Origin: Flectonema sp. DT1601 | Lineage: Eukaryota | Assembly: GCA_964019425.1 (NCBI GenBank) | Contig: OZ025781.1 | Span: 992,001-1,056,000 of the forward strand | Direction of reading: 5' to 3' | DNA: 64,000 bases | Shown here: positions 3,374 to 35,115 of the stretch, one piece after another | Layout of the letters: each line of letters opens with the position of its first letter | Numbering within the stretch: position 1 is the stretch's first letter | The notes under the pieces: generated by a model | What the model was told of the DNA's origin: nothing | What the model saw: the letters and a program-made list of their open reading frames with translations, nothing else | The model's database searches: none | Translations under genes and position numbers: made by a program

Positions 3374-3523
3374 CCCCCCCCCCCCCAGTTAATCAAAAAA
3401 AAAAAGCAAAATTTCGTAGGACAACAAACAAGTTGGTTTCGGGCTAAGATTAAAAACAATCTTTCTTCGGACCATTCCCCTTACCCAGCCCTCTTCAGCG
3501 AAGAGAGCCAGGGGGACATCTGA
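3374..3523 (-). mobile_element. Short 5'-truncated or non-autonomous PLE-type insertion carrying hammerhead A
   Basis: After removing the DNA transposon, it is flanked by the direct repeat ATTGAGACTGAATCA(C)nTA (1373-1400 and 3524-3547). Sequence is similar to 23995-24108. Confidence 0.65.
3434..3517 (-). ncRNA. Rearranged (A-C-B order) hammerhead ribozyme, copy A
   Basis: Minus strand reads CUCUCUUCG-CUGAAGA-GGGCU...AAUGGUC^CGAAGAAAG...AGCCC-GAAA-CCA. Stem I is CUUCG/CGAAG, stem II is GGGCU/AGCCC, stem III is ACCA/UGGU, and the cleavage triplet is GUC. Confidence 0.75.
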
Positions 3524-14149: not shown

Positions 14150-16363
14150 TCAAATCGCAAGAAGCCTATCAGCTTCTTCCAGAGTCCATAAAAATTGATT
14201 CAGCGGAAGAGACATGTTGAGGACATCTCTTCTCCAACCACCACTTGAGAAATTTGTGATGTTGTAGTGTTCCGGAATCGAGTCTTCAGAAAACAACCAT
14301 CTGATAACATGAATATTCGATCCCATCGAAAGGAAGACATAAAAAGGATCTTCTTGCGATGCATGTTTCATTGTCGCTTCTATGATAACAGACCTTGAAC
14401 GCATCAGAAATCCTAACGTCAGGTCAGCCCCAAAGACCCCAAACATCACAGCAACGTTTTCTAACATGCTCGATAATTTCATAAAACTATATTTTGAAAA
14501 CTCCACAGTCATCGGCTTCCAACCAGCTGACTTCGCTCCCTTCATAAGTTCCCCAGAGTTCGGGAGAAATCTCGTCCCACCTGCTCTCCTGTTTATGAAT
14601 AGAAGCTGCTTTCTATCACCAAGTGGAAGAGGAGAGAAATTATAACCAAAGTTACCTGTTAGCCAATGTCTTACGAGCGGTAATATGCTGTAAGTATACT
14701 TCGATAAAGGGGATAATCGAGGTGGTGGACACGCAACAATTACTTTTCTAAAACAAACTGTCCCCTGATAACCATGAGTACCATTCCCTGAATAGGATGG
14801 AGCAGTTATCACTTTATCAAGAAATGGAATATTTAGTTTATCCGCATATTTAAACCACCAATCACCTCGAAGTACCGAAGATGCATAATGCGGCCTCGGC
14901 TCACTGTAATAAGAAAGTGTTGTTGGCCGACACTTATATTTCCATCCGTGGTCGAGATTCCACTTCTTCCCGCGTTTTGATTTCCGTTTAAAAGAGCAGA
15001 GAGGAATCATTGGAATTACTCGACTGATATTATGAAGACTCAATGCATGGATCACAACTCCCCATAATTCTCCCAACCAGTGGGCCCAATTTTCGATGCC
15101 GGTACTCCTTTGCAGGTAGCCATTCCTAACAACCAAAAGAGGACTTTCTTCCCAATGGTCACAAGTGTCTTTGCTAATGTTTTCCCCCATCTTTATCCCC
15201 GAGAGGTAAAGTTGATCTCCAGGTGCCCACTGGTCTTTAAACTTACGAAAAGTGCCGTCTACAAGTGCTCCTTGAAATTCTCTTTGCATCAGACCAGCCA
15301 TGGCACCAACATAAATTCTTGGTTTTGCATAAGTCGTAGGGCACAACATTAACCCATCACAGCAACTACACGTTAAGAGGCTATCATCTTGCAGCCAACA
15401 ACTGCTTGCTTCAATAGTATCATTGTGATAGTCTATGAGGATGTCCTTTATATCTGAGAGAGAAGTTCCATTTACTACCGCTGGATGGATATCAAAAGTA
15501 TCTTTAGATACTTGAGTTCTTAATGCAGGGAAACAACGGGGTGGCCAATCAAGTTGAGACGGCCACTTTTTAGAAAGAAATGCCGTTGTTTCTATAAGAT
15601 CGTCAGCTTGTGTTGTATTGTCAGCTTGTGTTGTATTGTCAGCTTGTGTTGTATTGTCAGCTTGTGTTGTATTGTCAGCTTGTGTTGTATTGTCAGCTTG
15701 TGTTGTATTGTCAGCTTGTGTTGTATTGTCAGCTTGTGTTGTATTGTCAGCTTGTGTTGTATTGTCAGCTTGTGTTGTATTGTCAGCTTGTGTTGTATTG
15801 TCAGTGTCAGTTGGTTCTTGTAGTTGGTCTGCTTCACCCAGTTGGGAGGTATCTGACGATCCATTGAAGTTACCCTGAAGTTGATCATCAGCTTGTGTTG
15901 TATTGTCAGCTTGTGTTGTATTGTCAGCTTGTGTTGTATTGTCAGTGTCAGTTAGTTCTTGTAGTCGGTTTGCTTCACCCAGTTGGGAGGTTTCCTTAAC
16001 TGACGATACGTTGAAGTTATTTTGAAGTTGCTCATTATGGTGTGTTAAATTCTCAATGTCGGGCATTGCTGTCGGCAGGTCTCCTTGAATCTGTTGCTCT
16101 GAAATGTCACTACTAATAAATCCTTTCCGAGTAGATACTTTGTTTGTGCCATACGATTGTAAGGTTTGCTCATTATTATTAGTGATGTATATTTCATCGT
16201 ATCTCTTTTTCTTTATCCTTTTGATATCAATTGTGATGTTTCTACGAACTAATACACTTGTCATAGCCTCGAGTGTCTTTGGCTGATAAGAAGTTGAGAA
16301 GATCATCAACAGTAGTGCGGCGCTAAATATTAGCACCAATCTGAACCTTATCTTGGATCCCAT
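14150..16363 (-). CDS. GT61/DUF563-like type II membrane glycosyltransferase, copy 1 (737 aa)
   Basis: N-terminal signal anchor and DNTTQA repeat stem. NWAHWLGE, LLFINRR...TRFLPNSGEL and VMFGVFGADLT...VIIE match the GT61 N..H, I.R..R.I.N and GVHGAGL motifs. Confidence 0.75.
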   Translation of the reverse strand: MGSKIRFRLVLIFSAALLLMIFSTSYQPKTLEAMTSVLVRRNITIDIKRIKKKRYDEIYITNNNEQTLQSYGTNKVSTRKGFISSDISEQQIQGDLPTAMPDIENLTHHNEQLQNNFNVSSVKETSQLGEANRLQELTDTDNTTQADNTTQADNTTQADDQLQGNFNGSSDTSQLGEADQLQEPTDTDNTTQADNTTQADNTTQADNTTQADNTTQADNTTQADNTTQADNTTQADNTTQADNTTQADNTTQADDLIETTAFLSKKWPSQLDWPPRCFPALRTQVSKDTFDIHPAVVNGTSLSDIKDILIDYHNDTIEASSCWLQDDSLLTCSCCDGLMLCPTTYAKPRIYVGAMAGLMQREFQGALVDGTFRKFKDQWAPGDQLYLSGIKMGENISKDTCDHWEESPLLVVRNGYLQRSTGIENWAHWLGELWGVVIHALSLHNISRVIPMIPLCSFKRKSKRGKKWNLDHGWKYKCRPTTLSYYSEPRPHYASSVLRGDWWFKYADKLNIPFLDKVITAPSYSGNGTHGYQGTVCFRKVIVACPPPRLSPLSKYTYSILPLVRHWLTGNFGYNFSPLPLGDRKQLLFINRRAGGTRFLPNSGELMKGAKSAGWKPMTVEFSKYSFMKLSSMLENVAVMFGVFGADLTLGFLMRSRSVIIEATMKHASQEDPFYVFLSMGSNIHVIRWLFSEDSIPEHYNITNFSSGGWRRDVLNMSLPLNQFLWTLEEADRLLAI
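15603..15804 (-). repeat. 18-bp coding minisatellite (GACAATACAACACAAGCT)x11 encoding DNTTQA
   Basis: Perfect tandem units. Further blocks at ~15890-15945, within 20065-20555 and at ~34622-34696. Confidence 0.95.
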
Positions 16364-16480
16364 TTTGATTTTTTAGTACATTTACAACTTTATAAAAGGA
16401 AATTATTTATCAAAATACATAACACAACTCAAAAAGGTGAATGAGTTTCAGACACTCCTGACGAATCAGCATATGTTTCA

Positions 16481-16575: not shown

Positions 16576-18610
16576 ACTCGAAAATTACTGATTTTGTCCC
16601 ATTTTACCGATTTTAACCCTTTCCTTATGTACTGAAGTTCCGTGCCGTTTCCACACCACAGCTGCTCATTAGACTCAGGAAGAGTACCTGACCCCGAAGA
16701 GTTTGTGAATGCAGTGCACAGATCAGCAAAGAAAACGACAGGTTTCTCACGCTCCAACGAAGGACGCCGGGTCTTGGATAAATAAATCAGGGTAAAGAAA
16801 AACTTACGTCTTGCTATTACTATGTAGAAGATCTGGAATCCTAAACTTCTCCAAAAATACAACGAGAAAAAGGGTTCAAAATCGGTAATTAACTTTCAGA
16901 CTGTAAGAAAAAGGGTTAAAATCAGTAATAACTCATGTTAATATTTTTTCCTTTAAAAAAAAAGAATTTTAAAATAAGAATATATCTAACGGCCCTGCAG
17001 TTAGTTCGCAATTAGCGCGGTAATTAAAAATAATATTTGATATGGGCAGATTCCCTACAAAGTGTAACACCAATACAAAGACGATGTCCTTGGACACAAA
17101 GTAAGACAAGAATTGACTTAGCGAACGCATTGCAGCAATTTCTGCACAAGGCGACAAAAAGTCAATAAAGATTAAAACAAAACCAGCAACAACAGAAACA
17201 AGTTAGTATATGAGATTATTTAAAAATAAGAAAGAAAGAAAAGAAAAAAATGCATTTAAGAAAATAAGATAAGTATGTTCTTGAGACTTTATTCTAAATT
17301 TATTATAAAATCAGTTTCAACAGTAATTCTTATCCAAAGAACTGATAATAACAAAACGGAACATAAACAAGGTTGGGTTATTATGAATTTTGATAATTAA
17401 AACATAGATAGCTATCTAATCAAACGTTACTATATTATGAGTGCTCTACGAGGGTAATTCACAGTAACAGAAGACACAATCCGCATTGATTGTTGAATTA
17501 GCTTCAACTGATGTAATTTAATTTATAAAAATAATAATGAACACTAATCTTCAGCTTTCCATCCTTGCCTACCTTATTAAACTATTTATGTGTGCGCAAA
17601 CCGAAAACAACCCAATAAAGTAAGGGTGTTAACGTTACCCTGCCACAATTCTATTTTCGCTCATGAAACATGTCTTCGAGATGAAAAAATAATAATAATA
17701 TTCCACTCTCCCCTAGCTGTCACAAATGTAAAACAAAAAATGCCTCACACACAAGGAAACACTCACAGCCATTAAAAAGGGAAGGTGGAAATGGTGTGTA
17801 AGTAATAAAAATAAAAAAAAACGAACGAAATTTCCATTCCATATAAAACCTTTCATTAAATAATTATTAATATCCAAAGGGACTTACCGAAGGATTGAAG
17901 AAAGAGTACCACAAAACTTGGGCAATACGAATAACTATATCAAGAAACGGAATCAAAAGGAAGTTGAAGTGAGATAGTCAGTTTTGGTTCTTAGCCGTTA
18001 CGGAACAAGGCCCAGCCTGACAAAACATCGAACTAGAATTTAAAAGGAAAATAAAACAACGAACACACGCTTGATTGACAACAGCCCACTCTAGACTCGA
18101 TCAGAGAAGGGTTATTTGAACGGAAGTATATCATAGCGTTGAGAGCAGGTTACAAGTAGATTACTACTAATTGCGAGAGCTTGTATTGTTTTGAAATTGA
18201 GCAAAGCTCATCTTGATGATCATTAATTAAGTCTTCTGTGTCACGAAAAGTCTGCTGTGGAGGGAAAGTAAAGCCTGGGTAGTCTACATAACGAATGTGT
18301 ATTAAAAATAAAAGAGAGTATTTAGGCAAACTATCCTTTACTACACAAATAAGTTTCAAAAACGGGCAAATCTAAAATAATAACATCTCCAAACTTTACA
18401 CGAGACTCAACGAGGCCTCAGCTAAAATTCTTTTTTTCCGAAAACCCAGGTTGGTTCTGAAACTATTTGTGTAGGAAAGGCCTCCCCTTACCCAAGTTAT
18501 TATTTCCGATGCGGTACTAAACTAAAGAAAACAACATTAAAGTCATCCCCTCGACTGACTATTTCACAAATAACAAATGATCGATCCTCGATATGACAAA
18601 CTCAAATATA

Positions 18611-21040
18611 TCAAATCGCAAGAAGCCTATCAGCTTCTTCCAGAGTCCATAAAAATTGATTCAGCGGAAGAGACATGTTGAAGACATCTCTTCTCCAACC
18701 ACCACTTGAGAAATTTGTGATGTTGTAGTGTTCCGGAATCGAGTCTTCAGAAAACAACCATCTGATAACATGAATATTCGATCCCATCGAAAGGAAGACA
18801 TAAAAAGGATCTTCTTGCGATGCATGTTTCATTGTCGCTTCTATGATAACAGACCTTGAACGCATCAGAAATCCTAACGTCAGGTCAGCCCCAAAGACCC
18901 CAAACATCACAGCAACGTTTTCTAACATGCTCGATAATTTCATAAAACTATATTTTGAAAACTCCACAGTCATCGGCTTCCAACCAGCTGACTTCGCTCC
19001 CTTCATAAGTTCCCCAGAGTTCGGGAGAAATCTCGTCCCACCTGCTCTCCTGTTTATGAATAGAAGCTGCTTTCTATCACCAAGTGGAAGAGGAGAGAAA
19101 TTATAACCAAAGTTACCTGTTAGCCAATGTCTTACGAGCGGTAATATGCTGTAAGTATACTTCGATATAGGGGATAATCGAGGTGGTGGACACGCAACAA
19201 TTACTTTTCTAAAACAAACTGTCCCCTGATAACCATGAGTACCATTCCCTGAATAGGATGGAGCAGTTATCACTTTATCAAGAAATGGAATATTTAGTTT
19301 ATCCGCATATTTAAACCACCAATCACCTCGAAGTACCGAAGATGCATAATGCGGCCTCGGCTCACTGTAATAAGAAAGTGTTGTTGGCCGACACTTATAT
19401 TTCCATCCGTGGTCGAGATTCCACATCTTCCCGCGTTTTGATTTCCGTTTAAAAGAGCAGAGAGGAATCATTGGAATTACTCGACTGATATTATGAAGAC
19501 TCAATGCATGGATCACAACTCCCCATAATTCTCCCAGCCAGTGGCCCAAATTGTTGATGCCGGTACTCCTTTGCAGGTAGCCATTCCTAACAACCAAAAG
19601 AGGACTTTCTTCCCAATGGTCACAAGTGTCTTTGCTAATGTTTTCCCCCATCTTTATCCCCGAGAGGTAAAGTTGATTTCCAGGTGCCCACTGATCTTCG
19701 AACTGACGAAAAGTGCCGTCTACAAGTGCTCCTTGAAATTCTCTTTGCATCAGACCAGCCATGGCACCGACATAAGTACTTGGGCTTGCATAAGTCGTAG
19801 GACACAACATTAACCCATCACAGCAACTACACGTTAAGAGGCTATCATCTTGTAGCCAACAACTGCTTGCTTCAATAGTATCATTGTGATAGTCTATGAG
19901 GATGTCCTTTATATCTGAGAGAGAAGTTCCATTTACTACCGCTGGATGGATATCAAAAGTATCTTTAGATACTTGAGTTCTTAATGCAGGGAAACAACGG
20001 GGTGGCCAATCAAGTTGAGACGGCCACTTTTTAGAAAGAAATGCCGTTGTTTCTATAAGATCGTCAGCTTGTGTTGTATTGTCAGTGTCAGTTGGTTCTT
20101 GTAGTTGGTTTGCTTCACCCAGTTGGGAGGTATTCGACGATCCATTGAAGTTTCCCTGAAGTTCATCATCAGCTTGTGTTGTATTGTCAGCTTGTGTTGT
20201 ATTGTCAGTTGGTTCTTGTAGTTGGTCTGCTTCACCTAATTGGGAGTTATCTGACGATCCATTGAAGTTACCCTGAAGTTGATCATCAGCTTGTGTTGTA
20301 TTGTCAGCTTGTGTTGAATTGTCAGCTTGTGTTGTATTGTCAGCTTGTGTTGTATTGTCAGCTTGTGTTGTATTGTCAGTGTCAGTTAGTTCTTGTAGTC
20401 GGTTTGCTTCACCTAATTGGGAGTTATCTGACGATCCATTGAAGTTACCCTGAAGTTGATCATCAGCTTGTGTTGTATTGTCAGCTTGTGTTGTATTGTC
20501 AGCTTGTGTTGTATTGTCAGCTTGTGTTGTATTGTCAGCTTGTGTTGTATTGTCAGTGTCAGGTTCTGTAAGTTCTTCAATTAAATCATTTTGTCCATTA
20601 CTTGAATCACTACTATCGATTGTTTCGTTTGATTCTCGTAGTCGGTTTGCTTCACCCAGTTGGGAGGTTGCCTTAACTGACGATACGTTGAAGTTACTTT
20701 GAAGTTGCTCATTATGGTGTGTTAAATTCTCAATGTCGGGCATTGCTGTCGGCAGGTCTCCTTGAATCTGTTGCTCTGAAATGTCACTACTAATAAATCC
20801 TTTCCGAGTAGATACTTTGTTTGTGCCATACGATTGTAAGGTTTGCTCATTATTATTAGTGATGTATATTTCATCGTATCTCTTTTTCTTTATCCTTTTG
20901 ATATCAATTGTGATGTTTCTACGAACTAATACACTTGTCATAGCCTCGAGTGTCTTTGGCTGATCAGAAGTTGAGAAGATCATCAACAGTAGTGTGGCGC
21001 TAATAATTAGCACCAATCTGATTCTTGTTCTGAAACCCAT
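18611..21040 (-). CDS. GT61/DUF563-like glycosyltransferase, copy 2 (809 aa)
   Basis: Near-identical paralogue of 14150..16363 with a longer repeat stem. Confidence 0.75.
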   Translation of the reverse strand: MGFRTRIRLVLIISATLLLMIFSTSDQPKTLEAMTSVLVRRNITIDIKRIKKKRYDEIYITNNNEQTLQSYGTNKVSTRKGFISSDISEQQIQGDLPTAMPDIENLTHHNEQLQSNFNVSSVKATSQLGEANRLRESNETIDSSDSSNGQNDLIEELTEPDTDNTTQADNTTQADNTTQADNTTQADNTTQADDQLQGNFNGSSDNSQLGEANRLQELTDTDNTTQADNTTQADNTTQADNSTQADNTTQADDQLQGNFNGSSDNSQLGEADQLQEPTDNTTQADNTTQADDELQGNFNGSSNTSQLGEANQLQEPTDTDNTTQADDLIETTAFLSKKWPSQLDWPPRCFPALRTQVSKDTFDIHPAVVNGTSLSDIKDILIDYHNDTIEASSCWLQDDSLLTCSCCDGLMLCPTTYASPSTYVGAMAGLMQREFQGALVDGTFRQFEDQWAPGNQLYLSGIKMGENISKDTCDHWEESPLLVVRNGYLQRSTGINNLGHWLGELWGVVIHALSLHNISRVIPMIPLCSFKRKSKRGKMWNLDHGWKYKCRPTTLSYYSEPRPHYASSVLRGDWWFKYADKLNIPFLDKVITAPSYSGNGTHGYQGTVCFRKVIVACPPPRLSPISKYTYSILPLVRHWLTGNFGYNFSPLPLGDRKQLLFINRRAGGTRFLPNSGELMKGAKSAGWKPMTVEFSKYSFMKLSSMLENVAVMFGVFGADLTLGFLMRSRSVIIEATMKHASQEDPFYVFLSMGSNIHVIRWLFSEDSIPEHYNITNFSSGGWRRDVFNMSLPLNQFLWTLEEADRLLAI

Positions 21041-21167
21041 TTGTTATGTTTAGTACATTTACAACTTTATAATAGAATTGAATTGAATTAGTTATCAAAA
21101 AAACACAACTTCCAAAAATAACATCTCCTAAAAAATCACCTTCGACCTTCGAACTTAAAGATTTTTC

Positions 21168-23276: not shown

Positions 23277-23969
23277 GAAAGAATGCGGTCATGCGGTAAC
23301 AACAGTGCACACACTTTCTCAAGAGAGTGCCCAAACTCAATGCGTTTAAGTTCTGCAGAGAAAAGAATACTCGCGTCACAATAATTAAATATACGGAGAA
23401 AATAGCGTTGGCTGCAGTGAATGTCTGTACTGCAATTCTGTTTTCTACTGAAAAAAAGTAGACGTGAAGTCAGGCTGATTACTTGCTTTCTTAAAATGTG
23501 AATATCACTATCCATCATCTCTGTCTCTGGGAACCGATCCCCCCAAATTAATCAATCTCTTTCTAGTTATGAATGTGTTTGATAATTGATAAGACTTCTA
23601 TTGATATTGTTATTATATCCGAACACTTTGAAACTAACGCGTTTATATAGAGAATGGGGAAGTTGAAACAAAAATTTAATATCAAAAGTACTTGACTGAA
23701 AGAAAATATTTGCATGTGAGAAAGAAACCGTTCGATTTTGTACGTAAAATACAAAAGTATTGTATCAAAAAAACAACATTAGTTAGTTAGTTAAACATTC
23801 GAATATAACGATTGAGTGAAAGCAAAAAAAATAGGCGTAGCGATACGACGATAAGGAGAGGACTTAATTCTAATGCAAACTAAATTGGAGAATTATAATT
23901 TCTTTTTTTGGATTTTATCCGGAGAGCTAGTTAGTATCATTAATTAGAGCTAGTTAGTATTAATGGTTA

Positions 23970-24285
23970 TCAGTCAAAAGGGGAGAGGGCGGGAAAATTT
24001 TCGTAGGACAACAAACGAATAATGGTTGGTTTCGGGATAAGATTAAAAAATCCTTCTTCAGACCATTCCCCTTACCCAGCCCTCTTCAGCGAAGAAAGCA
24101 AGGTAGACACTGCGGTGTCAGGCCTGTCCTACTCATCGCATTTGCCACGTCAACATGGTTATTTCTTTTACCATGTAACACAGTCCCCCTATATAATTAT
24201 CAGTGAACGCGGGATACCAACAAAATGAGTGGAGCTGAGTTATGTTTATGGGGATTGAATAATAAAAAAATAAAAAAAAGTTCCA
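23970..24285 (-). mobile_element. Truncated PLE-type insertion of the same family as 3374-3523
   Basis: Contains hammerhead B. Flanked by diverged ~45-bp direct repeats TTAGTATCATTAATT...AGAGCTAGTTAG.ATTAATG.TTATC (~23931-23971, ~24289-24336). Boundaries are approximate. Confidence 0.55.
24027..24108 (-). ncRNA. Rearranged (A-C-B) hammerhead ribozyme, copy B
   Basis: Minus strand reads CUUUCUUCG-CUGAAGA-GGGCU...AAUGGUC^UGAAGAAGG...AUCCC-GAAA-CCA. Stem I is retained through G-U pairs; stem II has one mismatch. Confidence 0.7.
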
Positions 24286-24468
24286 GAGTTAGTATCATTA
24301 ATTTTAGAACAGAGCTAGTTAGAATTAATGATTATCCATTAATTAGTTATATAATCCAACGTTACTTTATATTATGAGTGCTCTAGGGAGGGTAACTCAC
24401 AGTAACAGAGGACCCAATCCGTAGCCATATCCGAAGATTTGGCTACGGATTGTTGAATTGGCATTGAC

Positions 24469-24561
24469 TGAAAGATTAGTTAGTATCATTAATTTTAGAA
24501 CAGAAAAGTGAGAATAAGAAAAGTAGAGATCAATAAAAGAAAAGTATTCATTTCTGCAGTT
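24469..24561 (+). repeat. 93-bp direct repeat flanking the PLE (second copy 26462-26554)
   Basis: Identical TGAAAGATTAGTTAG...TTTCTGCAGTT on both sides of the RT element. Confidence 0.95.
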
Positions 24562-24588
24562 TCCTAACATCAAAGGGTAATAGAATAT

Positions 24589-24656
24589 GTAGTTTCAGGC
24601 CTTAATCTTATACTACTTGTCCCTTTTTAGGCCTTCATCAGTAAGTTCTAAGGGAC
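24589..24656 (-). ncRNA. Rearranged (A-C-B) hammerhead ribozyme, copy C, in the PLE 3' UTR
   Basis: Minus strand reads GUCCCUU.AGAACUUA-CUGAUGA-AGGCCU-AAAAAGGGACAA-GUAGUA^UAAG-AUUA-AGGCCU-GAAA-CUAC. Stem I is CUUA/UAAG, stem II is AGGCCU/AGGCCU, stem III is ACUAC/GUAGU, with an extra helix GUCCCUU/AAGGGAC. Confidence 0.8.
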
Positions 24657-24745: not shown

Positions 24746-25357
24746 TCAATTTGAATTTTTGACGTCTGGTCGTTTCACTATTACAGTCGAGTTAATGGAT
24801 GAGTCGTCATCCAATTTCCGTTTTACTTTATCCTCGCATACTATCAAAGGTCCTATATTCGCAGGTGTCATTGTAACATCCATATCAGTCTGAGCTTTTA
24901 ATGGTATCATATGGAAACTATATTCTGTAGTTTGGTACATCTTGTCAAAATGGTCGAAAGGGAGTCTTAAATCTTTTGTGCCTTTAAGAATGTCTCGGAT
25001 GATCATGGACTCAAATGAGACTAGCGCAACAATAAAGTGAGTCATCCTTGTTTTCGCTTTATGCAGAATAAGTGCTGCGGCTGTATCAGGATATTCGAAA
25101 TCTGCTGGGTTAACGAAGTACTCGATTCTCCTGTTGAATTTAGTCATGCAAGCCATGTTAAGTACTTGTAGCGAGAACCAACCATCTGGTGATGGTTTAT
25201 GCTCTGAGTTGTTCGGTTCTACTTTAAGGGATTCTTCATAAAATCGCTGTTGGTAGTTTTGCAGAAAACTGAAGTTAATTCTATCGATATATAAATGATC
25301 TGCAATGAAGTTGAGCGATGACCATCTGATGTTTGATGTAGGGATGGTGGAAATCGT
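24746..25357 (-). pseudogene. Josephin (ataxin-3/MJD)-like protease domain, frameshifted from the PLE RT
   Basis: The frame of ORF 24746..25156 stays open upstream to 25357 and reads SSLNFIA...SPDGWFSLQVLNMAC...ALILHK...THFIVAL...IIRDILKG. Ataxin-3 has HCLNNLL...DSGFFSIQVISNAL...FICN..EHWFTV...FNLNSLLTG. Confidence 0.6.
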
Positions 25358-26554
25358 TTATCCAAGGAATGGCTTGTAGAGCCCGTATGGTTAATTGTAT
25401 CCTTTTCGATGCTTAATGGGACTTTGTGACTAAACTTCTCAAAAGTAAGGTTGATACGTCGACGCATTGCAGCTGCTGTATTACCATCATCAATGTGAGA
25501 GCTAATGAAGCGGAGGCATGCTGCTCTGATATTGTCAGATTTATAGCCCCGGTTGAGTAATCTATAAGTTACCGCTTCAAGTTCCTGTAAAAAATCTGCC
25601 TGGTTGTTGCAGATTTTTAAAGCTCGTAAGATCATGGTGGTAAAGATACCTGAACCCATTGATTCTTGAGCTGCGGAATGCTGATGGGTAAACCTTGTTG
25701 GTGTAATATGCCAACCCCTGACTTTGTCATTAACACTTAAACGAATCCATCGTTTATTTGTGTTAGTGATCTCTATTCGGATACGAATTCCTATATAAGA
25801 GACATCATCAATATTATTCGAAGTATCAGTGTAATCCATTGAGTACAGGCTTGCTGGTGGAGGGTCACAACTCCAGGTGAGGAAGTCGTCGATGTATCTA
25901 CACGAGTGGTCATGTTGCCGAGCTAAGTCTAGATTTTTTGCTTCAATTAAAGAATCGATATATGCGGATTCAACTCTATAGCAGTAGAGATTTGCTATAT
26001 CGCTACTGGCGTTGCCACCCATTGGAATGCCTATTATTTGTCTCCAAATATAACCTCTTAATGCAATAAAGGAGGAGTCAATACAGAATTCAAGTAATTT
26101 TTGACATTCTGCAAGCGCAAGAGAAGGGAATCGTGTAGGGTCACTCGATTCAAGACGTAAGATATTTTTGAAACTAAAGGCTTCTTGCAGTGCTTCACTT
26201 ACTTTAGTTTTAATAGCGTTGTGTGGTAGGCGGGTGTACATTGTTGTAAAATCAAAAGTCTTAGGGGATAATTTTTTCAAAACCATCAAATTCTGTTTAA
26301 TCGAACTAGAGACTTCATCATCTGATTCCACAATCCAGTATCGTTTGAACCGTGAATGCATATCTTTCTCTTTTAATATAGTCATCGCATTTTTAAGGAT
26401 ACTAGAGAGATGTTGGTGCGCATATGTTGTTGCTGTTGCAGGTGCAAGATAGAATGAATGATGAAAGATTAGTTAGTATCATTAATTTTAGAACAGAAAA
26501 GTGAGAATAAGAAAAGTAGAGATCAATAAAAGAAAAGTATTCATTTCTGCAGTT

Positions 26555-29500
26555 ATTTATTTATTTATTTATTTACGAAGCCTTGGAAGCCAAAAGCCAG
26601 GAAAAGCTCACAGAGTAACAGTTATATCGCTACCAGCAACCGTGAGACTCTCACAGACGATAAGAGACGTAGAATAACCTGGAACAAATGACTACCTAAA
26701 CCCACCGTCCACGCGAGCAGACAGTGTTAGAGACGGCTGATAACGCCAATTTTCGCCAAAGAGAGGGAGAACACGCCACATTAGATCAGAAAATAAGAAA
26801 TAAAGTAATGATAAGAAAGAGAAATGATACTAATAAATAAAATAAGAAATTACACTAGAGGAAAGAGACGTTCATTATCTACCTCGGGGATTACTTCGCA
26901 GGAGGCGACTTAGGCGAGAGAGGAACTTAGAAAGCTTGGATTCCGACCAGCTAGGATTGACCAGCACATTAACCATAGAAAGGTCGTCAATAACAACATT
27001 TAAATCGGTAGCTTTATAAGCGTTATCAATAAGTTCCATAACATATTCCTTCACATCAGAACCCAGTAGCGAGAAACTTGTCTTCCTTTCGATGTGTGTG
27101 ATTAGTTTCTTCCTCACAAAAATACCCTGAAGCGGAAACTTCAACAACAACGGATTGTCAGATAACTCTTTAAGATGATTATCAAGCTTGCTGATCAATA
27201 ACAAAGTGAAAGGCTGCCATTCGGTTCGAAAGAACATATCCAGAGATAGCTCATCATCAGGTGTCGGAAATCTCATGGTTTGCTTTACTAATTCCCTGGT
27301 CTCAACGCATTCAAGCAGCAGATGCTCAGTTGAGGTATCCTGAAAGCCACAGAACAGACAACATTTAAAGCCCGCAGTGACCCTCGGCAGCTTTACAAGC
27401 CTGTGGTGAGAGGTTCGCAGACGAGACAATTCTACCTCCTGCCCCCTAGTGAGACAGGGAAGGAAACGTTGAGGGCCAGATCCTAGAGTCGCTTTGCCGT
27501 ATGAATGCGAAGAGTCCACAGTACCCATAGCCTTCCAATTTGCTTGTTTCTTAATACAACATTGAGCCATCCTGAAATCATACGGAGTTAGTCCAGGGTC
27601 AACTGATTGCAAGGCTGCCCTCTTTGCCAGTGTATCAGCCAGTTCATTCCCTGCAATGCCACAATGAGATGGGACATGCTGGAAAATCAACGGCCTATCA
27701 AGAAGCACTGAGCGTTCAAAAATCTCACGATTTGTTGATGATGACTGCCTGGATGGCCCCCTATGCAGGGAGGCAAGCGCCGACTGACAATCACTGAAAA
27801 TATGAATCACGCCATGCGAAACAACATGAAGATTCTCCTCTAGTAGTTCAAGGGCTGACAATAGTGCTAGTTGTTCTGCATTGTAAATCGTGAGGGACGG
27901 TTGGAACTTGGAGAGCTTCTCAATGACCTTGCCAGCAACTAGCAGAACAGCAGCCCCCCCACATAATAATCCCCGCTCCTCGTCATGGAAGACCGAGGCA
28001 TCAGTGTAGACTTCAGCAACACACGGGGGCAGTTCATTGAGGGTCGTCATCGCCACAGCATACTTCTCCTCAGGTGTGTCAGTCTTGTCATAACCGCAGG
28101 ACGTGTTTACAACCAAAGGAGGATGCTTCGACCACGGAGGATACTGATGTGGCAGAACTTTCTGGGACCTAAGCTCTGACAGAGAAAATTCCGAGGAACA
28201 GGCTTCAACTCTAGTCTGCCATGGTCTCTTCTTCTCACCACCGTTAAACAGCCTCCATGAAGGACATTCAGGTTGTCGCCTTAGCAGATCTTCATGAACT
28301 AGGGCAAGGAGCCTAGATATCGTTTGTTGCAGCGGTGGAATTCGCGACTCAACTGTGAGCACCACATCCTTCGTCGAGAACGAGCAACCAGTGAGTCTTA
28401 TCCGTAGATGACGCAAGCACGCTTCGATCCGCTTGATCTGAACATCAGACAAAAAGGGAGAAAAAGCCTTTAGTCCAAAGAACGCTCGAGATAACACTGC
28501 ACCATCTACAAGCTGACGAAGGGTATCAGTTTTGACCTCATAGGCAGAGAACATTTTGAGTAAACCGCAACCAGCTCGAATTGTTTTCACAATCTTATCC
28601 ACCTGTTCGTCGAAGCATAGCGAGTCATCAATGATAACTCCTAGGTATTTCGCGCTCCTGACACGTTTCAGTGGGATCGCTGCTTTCAGCCTGAACTCCT
28701 TGCTCTTACGAGCACAGGCCAGTCGGACAAAGTCAGAACGTCTCGTCACCGGGTAACCATCAATCTCCAGTGGCAGCAAAGCATCAGCGAGATCCAGAAC
28801 TGCCCCTATTGATGGAGAAAGCTTCTCAGTGAGAGCACCGGCAGAGCCTGTAGGCATGTGTAACTCTTCAACAGACGATGGGAAGTAAAAGCGAGGTGCC
28901 CTACTCCATTCGACATCGGATCCAGAGATGCGCTTACCAAAGGCAACGTACTCTGTTTTCTTCATGTTTACCTCCATCTTAGAGGAAACCATCCAACCTT
29001 CTATCTGAGAGATGACGGACAGGCCCTTCGCTTCGATCCCATCTATCTTCTCATGTTGCAGAAACACGGCAAGATCATCAGCAAACAGAACACTGAGATC
29101 AGCATCACTTATTAGACCTGGCAGGGAGTCGACAAAGATCCGAAATAAGAGAGGACCAAGCACAGATCCTTGAGGGACCCCCTTCGTACAGGATCTGGAT
29201 CCACTATCTAATCCCAGAGACAGACTCACATTTCTATCCGAAAGATAGTTCGCAAGCCATTTAACATGCGGAACCGGCAGGACAGCTACCAATCTATCAA
29301 CGAGTATTTGATGATCCACGTTATCGAATGCCCCAGAGATATCAAAGAGGATGATCGCTCCATAACCATCATAGAGTTTCTGCACACCGGAAGCCGCATC
29401 CACCAATAGCGAGATGTTCTCTTCTACATTTCTGCCCGGCGTAAAACCAGACTGCCTAGGGTCCAACTTCCCCTCCAACAAATGTTCACATCGATTACCC

Positions 29501-30524
29501 ACAAGCGACTCCAAGCACTTCGAAACAATTGACGTCAAAGAGATTGGTCTGTAAGAAGACGGAAGAAGCGGGTCACGATCCCCTCCCTTCGGAATTATAA
29601 TCACCTTGGCCTTTTTCATGCAAGAGGGAAAGATACCCCTCCTGAAAGATAGCGAGGCGAGTCTAAGCAATAGTAGGAGCATACGGGGACCCAAGTTAAG
29701 CAGCATATTATTAGAAACAGAATCTAAACCAGACCCGTGGGAGGGAGTCAATGACTTCAGTACCGTGTATAACTCATGAATCGAAAAAGAACCACAGCTT
29801 GAGTCATCATAATCAGCAGGCTTCGAATCAGGAACTAATAACGGTGAGGATTTTGAATCACCAAAGAAATGGTCGAGTAAATCATCAGCAGCTACCGGAA
29901 CTTCCTTTGAATTGGACCGACCGCCCCTGAGTTCCCGCAGCTTGTCGAAGGCCCAGGCCGCTCCTTTTGAAGAACCAATTTTCGCAATAAGATCAGGTCT
30001 CAGCTTAGGTAATTTCTTCCTCCGCTTCGTATCAGATTTGAACCATTTGTTTGGAAGCGTTTCAATAGCCACCTCCTCAATTAGACTAATAAATTCACAT
30101 CCAAGCTTGTTCACATTAGACATCCCCTCCAAACGATGAGCTCGCGCTTCAGTTAGCACGCGAAATGAGACCCAGTGCTCATCCTCGAACTTGTTGTAGA
30201 ACCAGCGGCGGTGAGCGGGAGTGGTAATTTGTGAGCAGCCCGGATATACCGAGATGTCAACCACTATTGGCGTGTGGTCGGACCCACTATCAGACGCACT
30301 GTACTGGTGTACATTCAACACCTCAATATTGCTGTCGACAAGAAACAAATCAGGTGAAGTCTCTGAACAAGGTCTTGTATCCAGCGGAACATCGCAAATC
30401 TGCAGTCCATTTCCGTTAATCCAATCAAGAACTGACAGACCTCGCGACGAACTACTTGTTGGAACCACCCTCGACCACGACCGATGGTGAGCATTGAAAT
30501 CTCCACATACTACTTCACCGAGTT
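26555..30524 (-). mobile_element. 5'-truncated non-LTR retrotransposon (ingi/I-group LINE): partial APE, RT, RNase H, zinc finger
   Basis: ORF 26875..30468 is open upstream through VCGDFNAHH. Motifs: SDH (APE); YRPISL, DISGAFD, GVPQGSVLGP, FADD, KYLGV (RT); YTDAS, AE, SD, HCGIAGNELAD (RNase H); CxxC...H...C. (TAAA)n 3' tail at ~26553-26575. Confidence 0.95.
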
Positions 30525-30565
30525 TCCTAAAGATTAGTTAGTTAGTATTAATAATTATCAGTCAA

Positions 30566-30624
30566 AAGAAGGGGAGAGGGCGGGAAAATTCAACCGAATG
30601 CAAAAGTTCGTAGGACAACAAACA
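30566..30624 (-). mobile_element. ~60-bp 3'-end remnant of the hammerhead A/B element family
   Basis: Shares GGGGAGAGGGCGGGAAAATT and TTCGTAGGACAACAAAC with 23980-24016. Flanked by the 16-bp direct repeat AATAATTATCAGTCAA (30550-30565, 30625-30640). Confidence 0.6.
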
Positions 30625-30904
30625 AATAATTATCAGTCAATCAAAGTCCGAAGATTAGTTAGCTAGCGAGTCCGACATACCATCGAGTACCGGTTAGATA
30701 GACACAACAGGGGTGGAACGGTTAACCATCTGTGAGTCCCCAATACTACGACCTTATGTCAAACCTAATCCCTGAGAGGATCACTTTTTTAGCTCCAGCG
30801 AGGAATTCTAATGTTCGAGAGACACGAATACCTCAATGCTTCGGCCTTGCTGGTTCGCTAGCAAATTAACAAGGTTTGGGGAGGGGAAAGGAAGATTAGA
30901 TCTT

Positions 30905-31520
30905 CAGAGAAATATATATAAAATTAAAAAAAAAAAAATGAAAAATTCAAAAATTCTCATTTTTGAAATCAATATAGAATATTCATAAATCACAATGCCA
31001 ACTAGAGAAAGGAAAAGGGAGAAAAAAACGGAGGGCAAATGGGAGAACGGAATTGTCTGTGATCTATCGGGTCAATCATATTTCCTACCATACAAAAAGT
31101 GTGGATGCAAAAATATAATTGAGCCTTTGATCGTGTTCGGTTAAACTTAGGAGGAAGTATAATGGGGGTTAAAGAATCACTTGCACAGGGCTCGGCGCTG
31201 CTAGTCGGAAATCAGAAAAGCTATACGAATACACACAAAACGTGTTTGCTTTTTTCACAGTCGCTAATTAGGGAAGCCGGATTCTTTATTCTGTGGTGCC
31301 GCAATAAAGAGCACACACTGGCGTCTGTAGCAAGACACGGAATAAAAAGGGAATACTGTCGCGGGATTGTCAAGCGTGGTAGCTGAATGCCGCACAGTTT
31401 TCTGGAAGTAAAGCGAAATAAATATTAAATATCAAAGGCCGAGAGGTCTAGGTTAAGTGTGCTCCCAAACTTATCGAAGACTGCGAAGTGCTGCCGTAGT
31501 AAGAGGCCCTCTGAGAAATA

Positions 31521-31551
<31 letters not shown>

Positions 31552-32071
31552 TGAAAAAATTTCTCATTTTTGAAATCAATATAGAATATTCATAAATCAC
31601 AATGCCAATTCAGAGATATGAACGGCAGCTGAAACACAAGTTTACAAAATATAATTGAGCCTTTGATCGTGTTCGGTAAAACATAGGGTGAAGTATAATG
31701 AGGCTAAAGCATCACTTGCACAGGGCTCGGCGCTGCTAGTCGGAAATCAGAAAAGCTATACGAATACACACAAAACGTGTTTGCTTTTTTCACAGTCGCT
31801 AATTAGGGAAGCCGGATTCTTTATTCTGTGGTGCCGCAATAAAGAGCACACACTGGCGTCTGTAGCAAGACACGGAATAAAAAGGGAATACTGTCGCGGG
31901 ATTGTCAAGCGTGGTAGCTGAATGCCGCACAGTTTTCTGGAAGTAAAGCGAAATAAATATTAAATATCAAAGGCCGAGAGGTCTGGGTTAAGGTTGTGAT
32001 GAAATCACTGTGCTCCCAAACTTATCGAAGACTGCGAAGTGCTGCCGTAGTAAGAGGCCCTCTGAGAAATA

Positions 32072-32116
<45 letters not shown>

Positions 32117-32330
32117 AAAAAATTTCTCATTTTTGAAATCAATATAGAATATTCATAAATCACAATGCCAATTCAGAGATATGAACGGCAGCTGAAACAC
32201 AAGTTTACAAAATATAATTGAGCCTTTGATCGTGTTCGGTAAAACATAGGGTGAAGTATAATGAGGCTAAAGCATCACTTGCACAGGGCTCGGCGCTGCT
32301 AGTCGGAAATCAGAAAACCCTATACGAATA
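30905..32330. repeat. Tandem array of ~550-600 bp non-coding units (2 full + 1 partial)
   Basis: Unit boundaries GAGAAATATAT(A)n near 30907, 31513 and 32064. Core 31177-31450 matches ~31712-31985. A fragment also occurs at ~35393-35450. Confidence 0.9.
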
Positions 32331-33168: not shown

Positions 33169-35115
33169 TCAAATCGCAAGAAGCCTATCAGCTTCTTCCA
33201 GAGTCCATAAAAATTGATTCAGCGGAAGAGACATGTTGAAGACATCTCTTCTCCAACCACCACTTGAGAAGTTTGTGATGTTGTAGTGTTCCGGAATCGA
33301 GTCTTCAGAAAACAACCATCTGATAACATGAATATTCGATCCCATCGAAAGGAAGACATAAAAAGGATCTTCTTGCGATGCATGTTTCATTGTCGCTTCT
33401 ATGATAACAGACCTTGAACGCATCAGAAATCCTAACGTCAGGTCAGCCCCAAAGACCCCAAACATCACAGCAACGTTTTCTAATATGCTCGATAATTTCA
33501 TAAAACTATATTTTGAAAACTCCACAGTCATCGGCTTCCAACCAGCTGACTTCGCTCCCTTCATAAGTTCCCCAGAGTTCGGGAGAAATCTCGTCCCACC
33601 TGCTCTCCTGTTTATGAATAGAAGCTGCCTTCTATCAGCAGGTGGAAGAGGAGAGAAATTATAACCAAAGTTATCTGTTAGCCAATGTCTTACGAGCGGT
33701 AATATGCTGTAAGTATACTTCGATAAAGGGGATAATCGAGGTGGTGGGCACGCAACAATTACTTTTCTAAAACAAACTGTCCCCTGATAACCATGAGTAC
33801 CATTCCCTGAATAGGATGGAGCAGTTATCACTTTATCAAGAAATGGAATACTTAGTTTATCCGCATATTTAAACCACCAATCACCTCGAAGTACCGAAGA
33901 TGCATAATGCGGCCTCGGCTCACTGTAATAAGAAAGTGTTGTTGGCCGACACTTATATTTCCATCCGTAGTCGATATTCCACATCTTCCCATGTCTTGTT
34001 TTCCGTTTAAAAGAGCAGAGAGGAATCATTGGAATTACTCGACTGATATTATGAAGACTCAATGCATGGATCACAACTCCCCATAATTCTCCCAACCAGT
34101 GGGCCCAATTTTCGATGCCGGTACTCCTTTGCAGGTAGCCATTCCTAACAACCAAAAGAGGACTTTCTTCCCAATGGTCACAAGTGTCTTTGCTAATGTT
34201 TTCCCCCATCTTTATCCCCGAGAGGTAAAGTTGATTCGCAGGTGCCCACTGATCTTCGAACTGACGAAAAGTGCCGTCTACAAGTGCTCCTTGAAATTCT
34301 CTTTGCATCAGACCAGCCATGGCACCAACATAAATTCTTGGTTTTGCATAAGTCGTAGGACACAACATTAACCCATCACAGCAACTACACGTTAAGAGGC
34401 TATCATCTTGTAGCCAACAACTGCTTGCTTCAATAGTATCATTGTGATAGTCTATGAGGATGTCCTTTATATCTGAGAGAGAAGTTCCATTTACTACCGC
34501 TGGATGGATATCAAAAGTATCTTTAGATACTTGAGTTCTTAATGCAGGGAAACAACGGGGTGGCCAATCAAGTTGAGACGGCCACTTTTTAGAAAGAAAT
34601 GCCGTTGTTTCTATAAGATCGTCAGCTTGTGTTGTATTGTCAGCTTGTGTTGTATTGTCAGCTTGTGTTGTATTGTCAGCTTGTGTTGTATTGTCAGTGT
34701 CAGTTGGTTCTTGTAGTCGGTTTGCTTCACCCAGTTGGGAGGTTTCCTTAACTGACGATACGTTGAAGTTACTTTGAAGTTGCTCATTATGGTGTGTTAA
34801 ATTCTCAATGTCGGGCATTGCTGTCGGCAGGTCTCCTTGAATCTGTTGCTCTGAAATGTCACTACTAATAAATCCTTTCCGAGTAGATACTTTGTTTGTG
34901 CCATACGATTGTAAGGTTTGCTCATTATTATTAGTGATGTATATTTCATCGTATCTCTTTTTCTTTATCCTTTTGATATCAATTGTGATGTTTCTACGAA
35001 CTAATACACTTGTCATAGCCTCGAGTGTCTTTGGCTGATAAGAAGTTGAGAAGATCATCAACAGTAGTGCGGCGCTAAATATTAGCACCAATCTGATTCT
35101 TGTTCTGAAACCCAT
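33169..35115 (-). CDS. GT61/DUF563-like glycosyltransferase, copy 3 (648 aa)
   Basis: Near-identical paralogue with the shortest stem (4 DNTTQA units). Confidence 0.75.
   Translation of the reverse strand: MGFRTRIRLVLIFSAALLLMIFSTSYQPKTLEAMTSVLVRRNITIDIKRIKKKRYDEIYITNNNEQTLQSYGTNKVSTRKGFISSDISEQQIQGDLPTAMPDIENLTHHNEQLQSNFNVSSVKETSQLGEANRLQEPTDTDNTTQADNTTQADNTTQADNTTQADDLIETTAFLSKKWPSQLDWPPRCFPALRTQVSKDTFDIHPAVVNGTSLSDIKDILIDYHNDTIEASSCWLQDDSLLTCSCCDGLMLCPTTYAKPRIYVGAMAGLMQREFQGALVDGTFRQFEDQWAPANQLYLSGIKMGENISKDTCDHWEESPLLVVRNGYLQRSTGIENWAHWLGELWGVVIHALSLHNISRVIPMIPLCSFKRKTRHGKMWNIDYGWKYKCRPTTLSYYSEPRPHYASSVLRGDWWFKYADKLSIPFLDKVITAPSYSGNGTHGYQGTVCFRKVIVACPPPRLSPLSKYTYSILPLVRHWLTDNFGYNFSPLPPADRRQLLFINRRAGGTRFLPNSGELMKGAKSAGWKPMTVEFSKYSFMKLSSILENVAVMFGVFGADLTLGFLMRSRSVIIEATMKHASQEDPFYVFLSMGSNIHVIRWLFSEDSIPEHYNITNFSSGGWRRDVFNMSLPLNQFLWTLEEADRLLAI

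What the first reader, a model, noticed from the sequence alone, without database searches (positions are those of the whole stretch)
24589..24656. Non-circularly permuted (A-C-B) hammerhead ribozyme at the 3' end of a Penelope-like element
Seen: both hammerhead core segments (CUGAUGA, GAAA) frame a 6-bp stem II. The cleavage strand (stem III partner GUAG, GUA triplet, stem I partner UAAG) lies inside loop II instead of after GAAA. An extra 7-bp helix (GUCCCUU/AAGGGAC) ties the 5' flank to the linker. Known: types I-III are circular permutations, and PLEs carry hammerheads. I recall natural non-circular hammerhead permutations being reported (Eckert, Weinberg and colleagues, 2023), so the topology may not be new, but standard motif searches miss it. 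Inference: a self-cleaving site (between 24611 and 24610) processes PLE RNA out of polycistronic read-through transcripts.
Basis: partly seen in the sequence, partly recalled or inferred. Interest (0 to 1): 0.9.

Follow-up and report, generated by a model that had tools for sequence, protein, structure and literature searches.

The report
Type-CSG hammerhead in Penelope-like retroelement
The tail of a Penelope-like jumping gene holds every part of a hammerhead self-cutting RNA in a rare scrambled order, previously reported from only two soil DNA fragments, and it likely cuts the element's own transcript; this group of elements was reported to lack standard hammerheads, and cutting has not been tested.

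Summary
Confirmed. Minus strand 24656-24589 is a complete hammerhead in block order C-S-G, the 'type CSG' of Eckert 2023 (two soil-DNA sequences, both cleaved). Stems are 4/6/5 bp, with a 7-bp I-II helix (p=0.002) and a predicted cut at 24611|24610. No equally strong hit arose in 150 shuffled windows, and Rfam misses it. It lies in the 3' UTR of a 5'-truncated Naiad/Chlamys-type Penelope-like element, a clade reported to lack canonical hammerheads. A second CSG hammerhead of unrelated sequence sits at 3516-3434, with a worn copy at 24105-24027. By eye, eight published Naiad consensus entries (five among nematode families) carry CSG hammerheads. Among 80 metagenomic relatives, none has CSG, but 18 carry a related form opened between A9 and stem II (0.07 expected). 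The topology is therefore known. I found no paper (8 searches) giving it a genomic home or linking it to these elements. This scan has noted permuted, mostly split-core, hammerheads in Naiad/Chlamys elements of other genomes. Cleavage and biological role are untested, and the polycistronic-processing idea is unsupported as a specific explanation.

The parts
24589..24656 (-). Type-CSG hammerhead ribozyme motif (whole)
24650..24656 (-). I-II interaction helix, 5' strand GUCCCUU (pairs with 24625-24619)
   Evidence: 7 WC pairs, p=0.002 against shuffled linker; not part of the search descriptor
24629..24645 (-). Block C: stem I strand CUUA, core CUGAUGA (24641-24635), stem II strand AGGCCU
24619..24625 (-). 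I-II interaction helix, 3' strand AAGGGAC
24607..24616 (-). Block S: stem III strand GUAGU, H17 = A24611, stem I strand UAAG; predicted cut between 24611 and 24610
   Evidence: the cut site is predicted by analogy to hammerhead numbering, as validated for CSG-1 and CSG-2
24589..24602 (-). Block G: stem II strand AGGCCU, GAAA (24596-24593), stem III strand CUAC
25327..26448 (-). Reverse-transcriptase part of a 5'-truncated Naiad/Chlamys-type Penelope-like ORF (99.5% identical to residues 775-1148 of full-length P0033)
24746..25324 (-). C-terminal part of the same ORF (96% to P0033 residues 1159-1350), out of frame in this copy because of a 28-nt deletion at 25325; looks Josephin-like by eye only
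   Evidence: the Josephin label was not confirmed
24469..24588 (-). 3' tail of the element downstream of the ribozyme; contigs of both runs stop at about 24476-24480
26462..26554 (-). Exact 93-nt upstream copy of the element's 3' end (24469-24561): partial-tandem, pseudo-LTR-like remnant that stops 27 nt short of the ribozyme
3434..3516 (-). Second type-CSG hammerhead of unrelated sequence (stems 6/5-8/4 bp, GUC triplet, predicted cut 3470|3469, 5-bp I-II helix that is not significant alone)
24027..24105 (-). Worn paralogue (85% identical) of the 3516-3434 hammerhead, with a stem II mismatch and a weakened I-II helix

Best explanation
The minus strand at 24656-24589 carries a complete hammerhead core in the type-CSG order, within the 3' UTR of a Naiad/Chlamys-type Penelope-like retrotransposon, and it likely self-cleaves after the GUA at 24611 to cut the element's long precursor RNA once per repeat unit. 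Shown: the sequence, all four helices, the position 90 nt after the stop codon, the element type, and the partial-tandem arrangement. Inferred: the I-II helix and stem III form as nested helices, stems I and II dock as pseudoknots once the final GAAA block is transcribed, and the standard hammerhead reaction leaves a 2',3'-cyclic phosphate on the ORF-bearing piece (135 nt after the stop) and a 5'-OH on the 142-nt tail. In tandem copies this would release unit-length RNA that starts with one copy's tail and ends inside the next ribozyme, which could serve as the reverse-transcription template, possibly after religation into a circle. In the CSG order the two cut pieces stay joined by stems I, II and III (15 bp), whereas in type I only stem I holds them, so slow release and religation are predicted. 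My odds: about 0.9 that the fold is real and selected, 0.8 that it cleaves at that site, and 0.55 for the precursor-processing role.
For: All core nucleotides and 22 WC pairs are present; 0 hits of this strength in 150 shuffled windows. The 7-bp I-II helix (p=0.002) matches the helix of the validated CSG-1 and CSG-2, which cleaved at the predicted site. A second family in the same window keeps the same topology with entirely different stems. A marine-metatranscriptome contig carries 45 substitutions over about 703 aligned bases but none listed in the 68-nt motif (Fisher p=0.016). The full-length relative P0033 has an N-terminal GIY-YIG-like region, CxC and DKG motifs, then RT. Craig 2021 reported Naiad cores with the second half 35-50 nt away that fit no descriptor; the spacer here is 38 nt. 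By eye, 8 entries of that paper's consensus file have full CSG hammerheads with different stems and 9-16-bp I-II helices. Of 80 metagenomic relatives, 18 carry the same ring opened between A9 and stem II, all on the sense strand, against 0.07 per shuffled set. Precursor cleavage and circularisation is the model Cervera and de la Pena proposed for PLE hammerheads.
Against: No cleavage was measured, and no raw reads were available to show RNA ends; an RNA-library contig runs uncut across the site. There is no covariation within this element's own family, because the relatives seen are identical or nearly so over the motif. Against non-coding neighbours only, the conservation is not significant (p=0.26). 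Stem I is weak (4 bp, duplex about +0.3 kcal/mol), the 10.1-11.1 pair is A-U, and the nested MFE fold uses the stem I and II strands in other hairpins, though ViennaRNA cannot model pseudoknots. Published CSG rates are slow, 0.004 and 0.026 per min. In the anole element, hammerhead mutants still inserted in vitro, no RNA-seq reads ended at the site, and cleavage needed the protein. None of the 80 metagenomic relatives has intact CSG, and many with long tails have no hammerhead core. The eight published CSG cases were read by eye, not computed.
Confidence: 0.7

Rival explanations
1. The ribozyme cleaves, but its job is to restrain or time the element: the cut separates the ORF from the tail and poly(A) and destabilises the mRNA, and uncut RNA is the real template.
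For: In the anole element, unprocessed RNA was the dominant substrate and cleavage was dispensable. The element's 3' end lies about 140 nt downstream of the cut, so a singly cut RNA lacks it. CSG ribozymes are slow.
Against: Partial-tandem structure is present and fits unit-release models. It cannot be excluded with these tools.
Confidence: 0.15
2. The motif is active only as a dimer or with protein help: the self-complementary stem II strand AGGCCU pairs between two copies, or the element's protein chaperones the pseudoknotted fold.
For: Stem II is palindromic (self-duplex -9.1 kcal/mol) and stem I is weak. Metazoan PLE hammerheads are thought to act as dimers, and the anole one needs protein.
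Against: The second family's stem II strands (GGGCU/AGCCC) are not palindromic. CSG-1 and CSG-2 cleaved during transcription without element protein. Stem III is full-length here.
Confidence: 0.08
3. One reading: the ribozyme is an adaptation that excises element RNA from host polycistronic read-through transcripts.
For: Of the 34 ORFs of 120 aa or more, 31 lie on the minus strand, the same strand as the element. The nearest named RT homologues are from diplonemids.
Against: The same ring occurs, read by eye, in Naiad elements of cnidarians and cephalopods and, computed, across many metagenomic RT lineages. A single 3'-UTR cut does not free the 5' end of a solitary copy.
Confidence: 0.05
4. 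The arrangement is chance, or a non-catalytic structure such as a protein-binding or priming element.
For: No activity data. The nested MFE fold differs from the active fold.
Against: Shuffle controls, two unrelated families in one window, invariant core nucleotides, and the validated precedent.
Confidence: 0.02

Closest known systems
Type-CSG hammerhead ribozymes CSG-1 and CSG-2 (Eckert, Friedrich, Weinberg, Weinberg 2023, PMC10085705; read: abstract, methods, results sections 15 and 16, part 3 of 8 of the whole text, first part of the discussion, supplement passages and part 2 of 42)
   Same: Block order C-S-G, intact core, a helix joining the 5' flank of stem I to the 3' side of stem II, similar size (66 nt against 68 nt here), cut in the middle of the motif.
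   Different: No sequence similarity in the stems, GUA rather than GUC triplet, shorter stem I, palindromic stem II. The published ones are two unique sequences from soil metagenome DNA with no gene context given in the parts read; this one is chromosomal, in a retrotransposon 3' UTR, in a multi-copy family.
Hammerheads of canonical Penelope-like elements (Cervera and de la Pena 2014, PMC4209133, passages; Frangieh 2024, PMC11167929, passages)
   Same: A hammerhead in the terminal repeat region of a PLE, on the sense strand, in partial-tandem arrangements.
   Different: Those are type I (CGS), often minimal with a tiny stem III and thought to act as dimers. This one is non-circularly permuted, with a full stem III and a helical I-II contact.
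Naiad/Chlamys N-terminal-endonuclease PLEs (Craig 2021, PMC8557442; passages, and supplement passages)
   Same: N-terminal GIY-YIG-like region, CxC, DK(G), RT, 5' truncation, partial tandem; a C-terminal extension that looks Josephin-like by eye, as reported for Chlamys-1_cBra.
   Different: Described as lacking canonical hammerheads apart from two subclades; no euglenozoan member was mentioned ('euglenoz' 0 occurrences in the main text). Here the 3' UTR holds a full permuted hammerhead, which accounts for at least some of that paper's unexplained 'HHR_core' and 'HHR_half_core' flags.
Type-SGC hammerheads (HRIMA-1; Eckert 2023)
   Same: Same non-circular ring of blocks and an I-II helix.
   Different: The chain opens at a different point (S first); found next to hairpin ribozymes, which the paper places in virus-like circular RNAs.

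Membership tests
Hammerhead ribozyme | Core CUGANGA, GAAA and NUH with stems I-III in register | tested here: met
Hammerhead ribozyme | Site-specific self-cleavage after H17, lost with a core mutation | not testable with these tools
   Only assembled contigs were available; needs a bench assay
Hammerhead types I-III (CGS, GSC, SCG) | Circularly permuted block order, three-way junction without pseudoknots | tested here: not met
   The order is C-S-G; Rfam hammerhead models give no hit
Type-CSG hammerhead (Eckert 2023) | 5'-to-3' block order C, S, G with uninterrupted blocks | tested here: met
Type-CSG hammerhead (Eckert 2023) | Helix bringing stems I and II together | tested here: met
   7 WC pairs, p=0.002; same placement as in the published alignment
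Type-CSG hammerhead (Eckert 2023) | Covariation of the helices among homologues | tested here: inconclusive
   None within the element's own family (relatives identical over the motif). Same topology with different stems in a second window family and, by eye only, in 8 published Naiad entries. No R-scape test was run.
Naiad/Chlamys PLE clade | GIY-YIG endonuclease N-terminal to the RT | tested here: met
   Absent from the truncated window copy. In full-length relatives, Pfam GIY-YIG scores below the curated cut-off for P0033 (residues 237-286, E 0.15) and P0037 (E 0.007) and above it for the more distant P0002 (E 5.7e-5), always upstream of the RT
Naiad/Chlamys PLE clade | CxC motif and DK(G/A) motif between endonuclease and RT | tested here: met
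   Read by eye in P0033 (CNC, DKG) and P0037 (CPC, DKG) (definition)
Naiad/Chlamys PLE clade | 5' truncation and partial-tandem pseudo-LTR | tested here: met
   The ORF starts at residue 775 of 1350; 93-nt exact terminal repeat
Naiad/Chlamys PLE clade | Insertion-in-fingers domain; phylogenetic placement among curated Naiad and Chlamys families | not tested
   Curated reference proteins were not available as tool sequences. The quick tree only places the RT with diplonemid proteins beside metagenomic relatives
Chlamys (as distinct from Naiad) | Endonuclease lacks the CCHH and CX2-5CxxC zinc fingers | tested here: inconclusive
   No such motifs visible by eye around the GIY-YIG region of P0033 or P0037; not aligned to references

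The most novel reading that the evidence does not exclude
The hammerheads said to be missing from Naiad/Chlamys retrotransposons are present in many of them, but wired non-circularly: as type CSG in this diplonemid-like genome (two independent families) and in nematode Naiads, and as a further form opened between A9 and G10.1, with an extra closing helix and hairpin, in many other lineages. These elements would be the main natural home of non-circular hammerheads. The CSG wiring, which keeps both cut pieces joined by all three core stems, would be selected to favour religation into circular templates.
Probability: 0.6. Interest if true: 0.85.

Novelty: new member of a known kind. Interest (0 to 1): 0.72.

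Why it matters
Type CSG was the weakly supported class in the paper that defined non-circular RNA permutations: two near-identical sequences with no known context. This window supplies two unrelated chromosomal families and a biological setting. It also bears on an open question in transposon biology. Craig 2021 took the absence of canonical hammerheads from the very abundant Naiad/Chlamys elements to suggest that hammerheads are dispensable or parasitic. If the ribozymes were missed because of their strand order, that inference fails, and a hammerhead becomes a much more general feature of Penelope-like elements. The 68-nt motif can be tested in a single in vitro transcription, and the Chlamys elements of Chlamydomonas (one is described as active by Craig 2021) could offer an in vivo system, if they prove to carry such a motif.

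Tried and rejected
No genome was held for this window, so no genome-wide copy count or covariation test was possible. Rfam found no hammerhead in the window, no family at gathering threshold in 19 of the 80 loci, and only microRNA and snoRNA matches below gathering score in 10 loci. The viral collection gave no relatives in two scans. The six three-block orders gave 0 hits in the 80 metagenomic loci at stems 4/4/3, and two weak non-CSG hits at 3/3/2. The two sequencing runs are contigs only and cannot show RNA ends; the RNA run holds a small share of the stretch, so I draw no habitat or expression conclusion. The Josephin-like label for the C-terminal domain was not confirmed: no Pfam or PDB sequence match, and the single-sequence model had mean pLDDT 42 and was not searched. 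The careful tree did not finish, so only the quick, midpoint-rooted tree was read; it cannot say which form is ancestral. I considered the 93-nt repeat as a target-site duplication and disfavour that reading, because a diverged relative in run X2 carries the same tail next to the ribozyme. One X1 contig leaves the sequence at 24583, so some copies end or differ just after the ribozyme. Literature: 8 searches found 'type-CSG' only in Eckert 2023, and no paper linking permuted hammerheads to Naiad, Chlamys or diplonemids. The library lacks most subscription papers. The 2026 retrozyme preprint (10.64898/2026.07.22.740005; passages) used canonical and minimal type I models; its supplements were not seen.

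Full report
Observation. The minus strand of 24656-24589 reads, in order: a 7-nt strand GUCCCUU, stem I strand CUUA, the core CUGAUGA, stem II strand AGGCCU, the partner AAGGGAC, the cleavage strand GUAGU-A-UAAG, the second AGGCCU, GAAA and CUAC. All 22 predicted pairs are Watson-Crick, and the triplet GUA puts the cut between 24611 and 24610. My descriptor allowed the three hammerhead blocks in any of six orders. It found 2 hits in the 64-kb window at stems of at least 3/3/3, both in the order C-S-G and both on the minus strand. In 150 shuffled windows it found 3 hits at that level, none C-S-G, and none at 4/4/4. The 7-bp helix was not in the descriptor and has p=0.002 against shuffled linkers. 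Rfam reports no hammerhead here.

What the RNA is. Eckert et al. 2023 (PMC10085705; I read the abstract, methods, results sections 15 and 16, part 3 of 8, the first part of the discussion, and supplement passages) divide the hammerhead into blocks C, G and S. Types I-III are CGS, GSC and SCG; the non-circular orders are SGC, CSG and GCS. Type CSG rested on two similar sequences from soil DNA, both of which cleaved at the predicted site at 0.004 and 0.026 per min; the authors called the evidence weaker than for SGC. Their alignment has the same four helices in the same order as the window motif. The topology is therefore known, and this is a new member.

Where it sits. The upstream ORF is a 5'-truncated copy of a multi-copy family. 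It is 99.5% and 96% identical to residues 775-1148 and 1159-1350 of the 1350-residue P0033, whose cluster has 59 members. The frameshift between the two parts corresponds to a 28-nt stretch present in a contig of run X1. Full-length relatives have a GIY-YIG-like region before the RT (Pfam E 0.15 and 0.007, below cut-off; 5.7e-5 in a more distant one) and CxC and DKG motifs read by eye. These are the diagnostics of the Naiad/Chlamys clade. The nearest named proteins are from the diplonemids Flectonema neradi (52%) and Diplonema papillatum (about 40%), and 31 of 34 long ORFs share one strand, so the host is likely a diplonemid (inference). The ribozyme starts 90 nt after the stop codon. The element's tail runs to about 24469-24480, and its last 93 nt are repeated exactly at 26462-26554, where a LINE with a short (AAAT)n tail abuts. 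This is the partial-tandem pattern typical of these elements.

Independent support. First, the window holds a second CSG hammerhead at 3516-3434 with unrelated stems (6, 5-8 and 4 bp; GUC triplet), plus an 85%-identical worn copy at 24105-24027. Its 5-bp I-II helix is not significant alone (p 0.05-0.4), and no PLE ORF lies next to either copy. Second, a contig from a marine metatranscriptome differs at 45 of about 703 aligned bases but at none listed within the 68-nt motif (Fisher p=0.016; only p=0.26 against the neighbouring non-coding stretch). Third, Craig et al. 2021 (PMC8557442; passages and supplement passages) state that Naiad and most Chlamys elements lack canonical hammerheads. They flagged cases with a core that fits no descriptor, eight of them with the second half 35-50 nt away; the spacer here is 38 nt. 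I read their consensus file by eye around 60 of 81 CGAAAC and 30 of 62 CTGATGA places. Eight entries have complete CSG hammerheads with different stems and I-II helices of 9-16 bp, one with an extra U after the core and one with a GUU triplet. Five of the eight lie among entries headed by nematode family names; the headers of the other three were not shown. This was not computed.

A related form in relatives. I fetched 80 metagenomic loci with related RTs (23-38% identity; the best 80 of 480 confirmed). None has any of the six three-block orders at stems 4/4/3. When the chain is allowed to open between A9 and the first base of stem II, 18 of 80 show one order: stem II strand, block S, block G, then stem I strand with CUGANGA last. 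All 18 are on the sense strand, against 0.07 per shuffled set of 80 over both strands; 7 hits of other split orders were also seen. Seventeen lie downstream of the RT and one upstream. Three more were seen by eye. Helices outside the descriptor recur: the I-II helix has p<0.05 in 9 of 18, and a helix closing just after A9 has p<0.05 in 12 of 18. The hits fall on many branches of a quick RT tree, several being near-copies. Eight entries of the Craig file show the same form by eye. It is the CSG ring opened at a point that Eckert et al. assumed could not be broken. Many other loci are truncated or carry no hammerhead core. After reaching this reading I found that earlier agents of this scan had noted the split-core form, and a permuted form in a moss, in other genomes. 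Those notes are unchecked and are not evidence; none was on this genome.

Mechanism. Shown: anatomy, position and element type. Inferred: the I-II helix and stem III are the nested, stable part (pair probabilities near 1 for most pairs in ViennaRNA); stems I and II dock as pseudoknots after the last block is made; and cleavage follows standard hammerhead chemistry. In tandem copies one cut per unit would release unit-length RNA, the role proposed for PLE hammerheads by Cervera and de la Pena 2014 (PMC4209133, passages). A consequence of the CSG order is that stems I, II and III all bridge the two products, so slow release and religation are predicted. Against this: stem I is weak, the nested MFE fold competes, an RNA-library contig spans the site, and for the anole element cleavage was dispensable in vitro, needed protein, and left no read ends (Frangieh 2024, PMC11167929, passages). 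The polycistronic explanation is possible for this host but does not account for the animal cases.

Novelty and verdict. Eight literature searches found type CSG only in Eckert 2023, and nothing joining permuted hammerheads to Naiad, Chlamys or diplonemid elements. The library omits most subscription journals, and unread parts of the supplements could bear on this. The RNA is a new member of a known but barely populated class. Its setting gives that class a genomic home and offers a direct test of whether a major retrotransposon clade really lacks hammerheads. Interest 0.72.

Noticed in passing
L003, L004, L006, L007, L008, L010, L011, L023, L024, L032, L033, L037, L040, L045, L046, L053, L054, L077 (core positions): Hammerhead opened between A9 and stem II, usually with a helix closing after A9 and a hairpin before stem II; not among the six published block orders; 18 of 80 loci, sense strand.
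   Followed up: partly
window 3434-3516 and 24027-24105, minus strand: Second CSG hammerhead family with no adjacent ORF, probably short 3'-end copies of another PLE family or a non-autonomous partner. Its tail recurs at 30536-30630, next to the LINE's 5' end.
   Followed up: partly
window 24344-24437, 13146-13236, 17409-17483 and about 35470-35545, minus strand: Repeat family directly downstream of the element, with a long hairpin and a short conserved motif that resembles motif M1 of metagenomic relatives; no Rfam match.
   Followed up: partly
L041-L043, L047, L048, L052, L066-L068, L075 (3' UTRs): Conserved structured 3'-UTR motif M1 in relatives without a detected hammerhead; 8 of 24 predicted pairs show compensatory change in 6 sequences; no Rfam family. 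A candidate for another ribozyme or an RT-binding element.
   Followed up: partly
L019-L021, L027, L028, L044, L063, L035 (3' UTRs): A different conserved 3'-UTR motif M2 with apparent hairpins, followed in most by (TACA)n repeats, in relatives without a hammerhead core.
   Followed up: no
window 24746-25324; P0033 about residues 1140-1300; P0001, P0010, P0012: These PLE proteins carry C-terminal deubiquitinase-like domains: USP/UCH in D. papillatum and metagenomic relatives (Pfam PF00443), and a Josephin-like domain by eye in the window's family (unconfirmed).
   Followed up: partly
window 23923-24561, 26462-26554, 30536-30560: Several nested element ends finish in the same motif (minus strand ...ATACTAACTAA...). 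It looks like a branch point plus splice acceptor, or a shared microsatellite-like insertion target; both truncated ORFs begin just after it.
   Followed up: no
window 26555-30537, minus strand: Non-LTR retrotransposon (endonuclease fragment, RT, RNase H) with an uninterrupted 1220-codon frame and an (AAAT)n tail, directly abutting the PLE.
   Followed up: partly
window 14150-16372, 18611-21043, 33169-35118: Three paralogous glycosyltransferase-61-like genes with variable internal tandem repeats.
   Followed up: no
window about 30960-32300: Near-tandem repeats of several hundred bases with poly(A) runs, partly repeated at 35392-35450; not identified.
   Followed up: no
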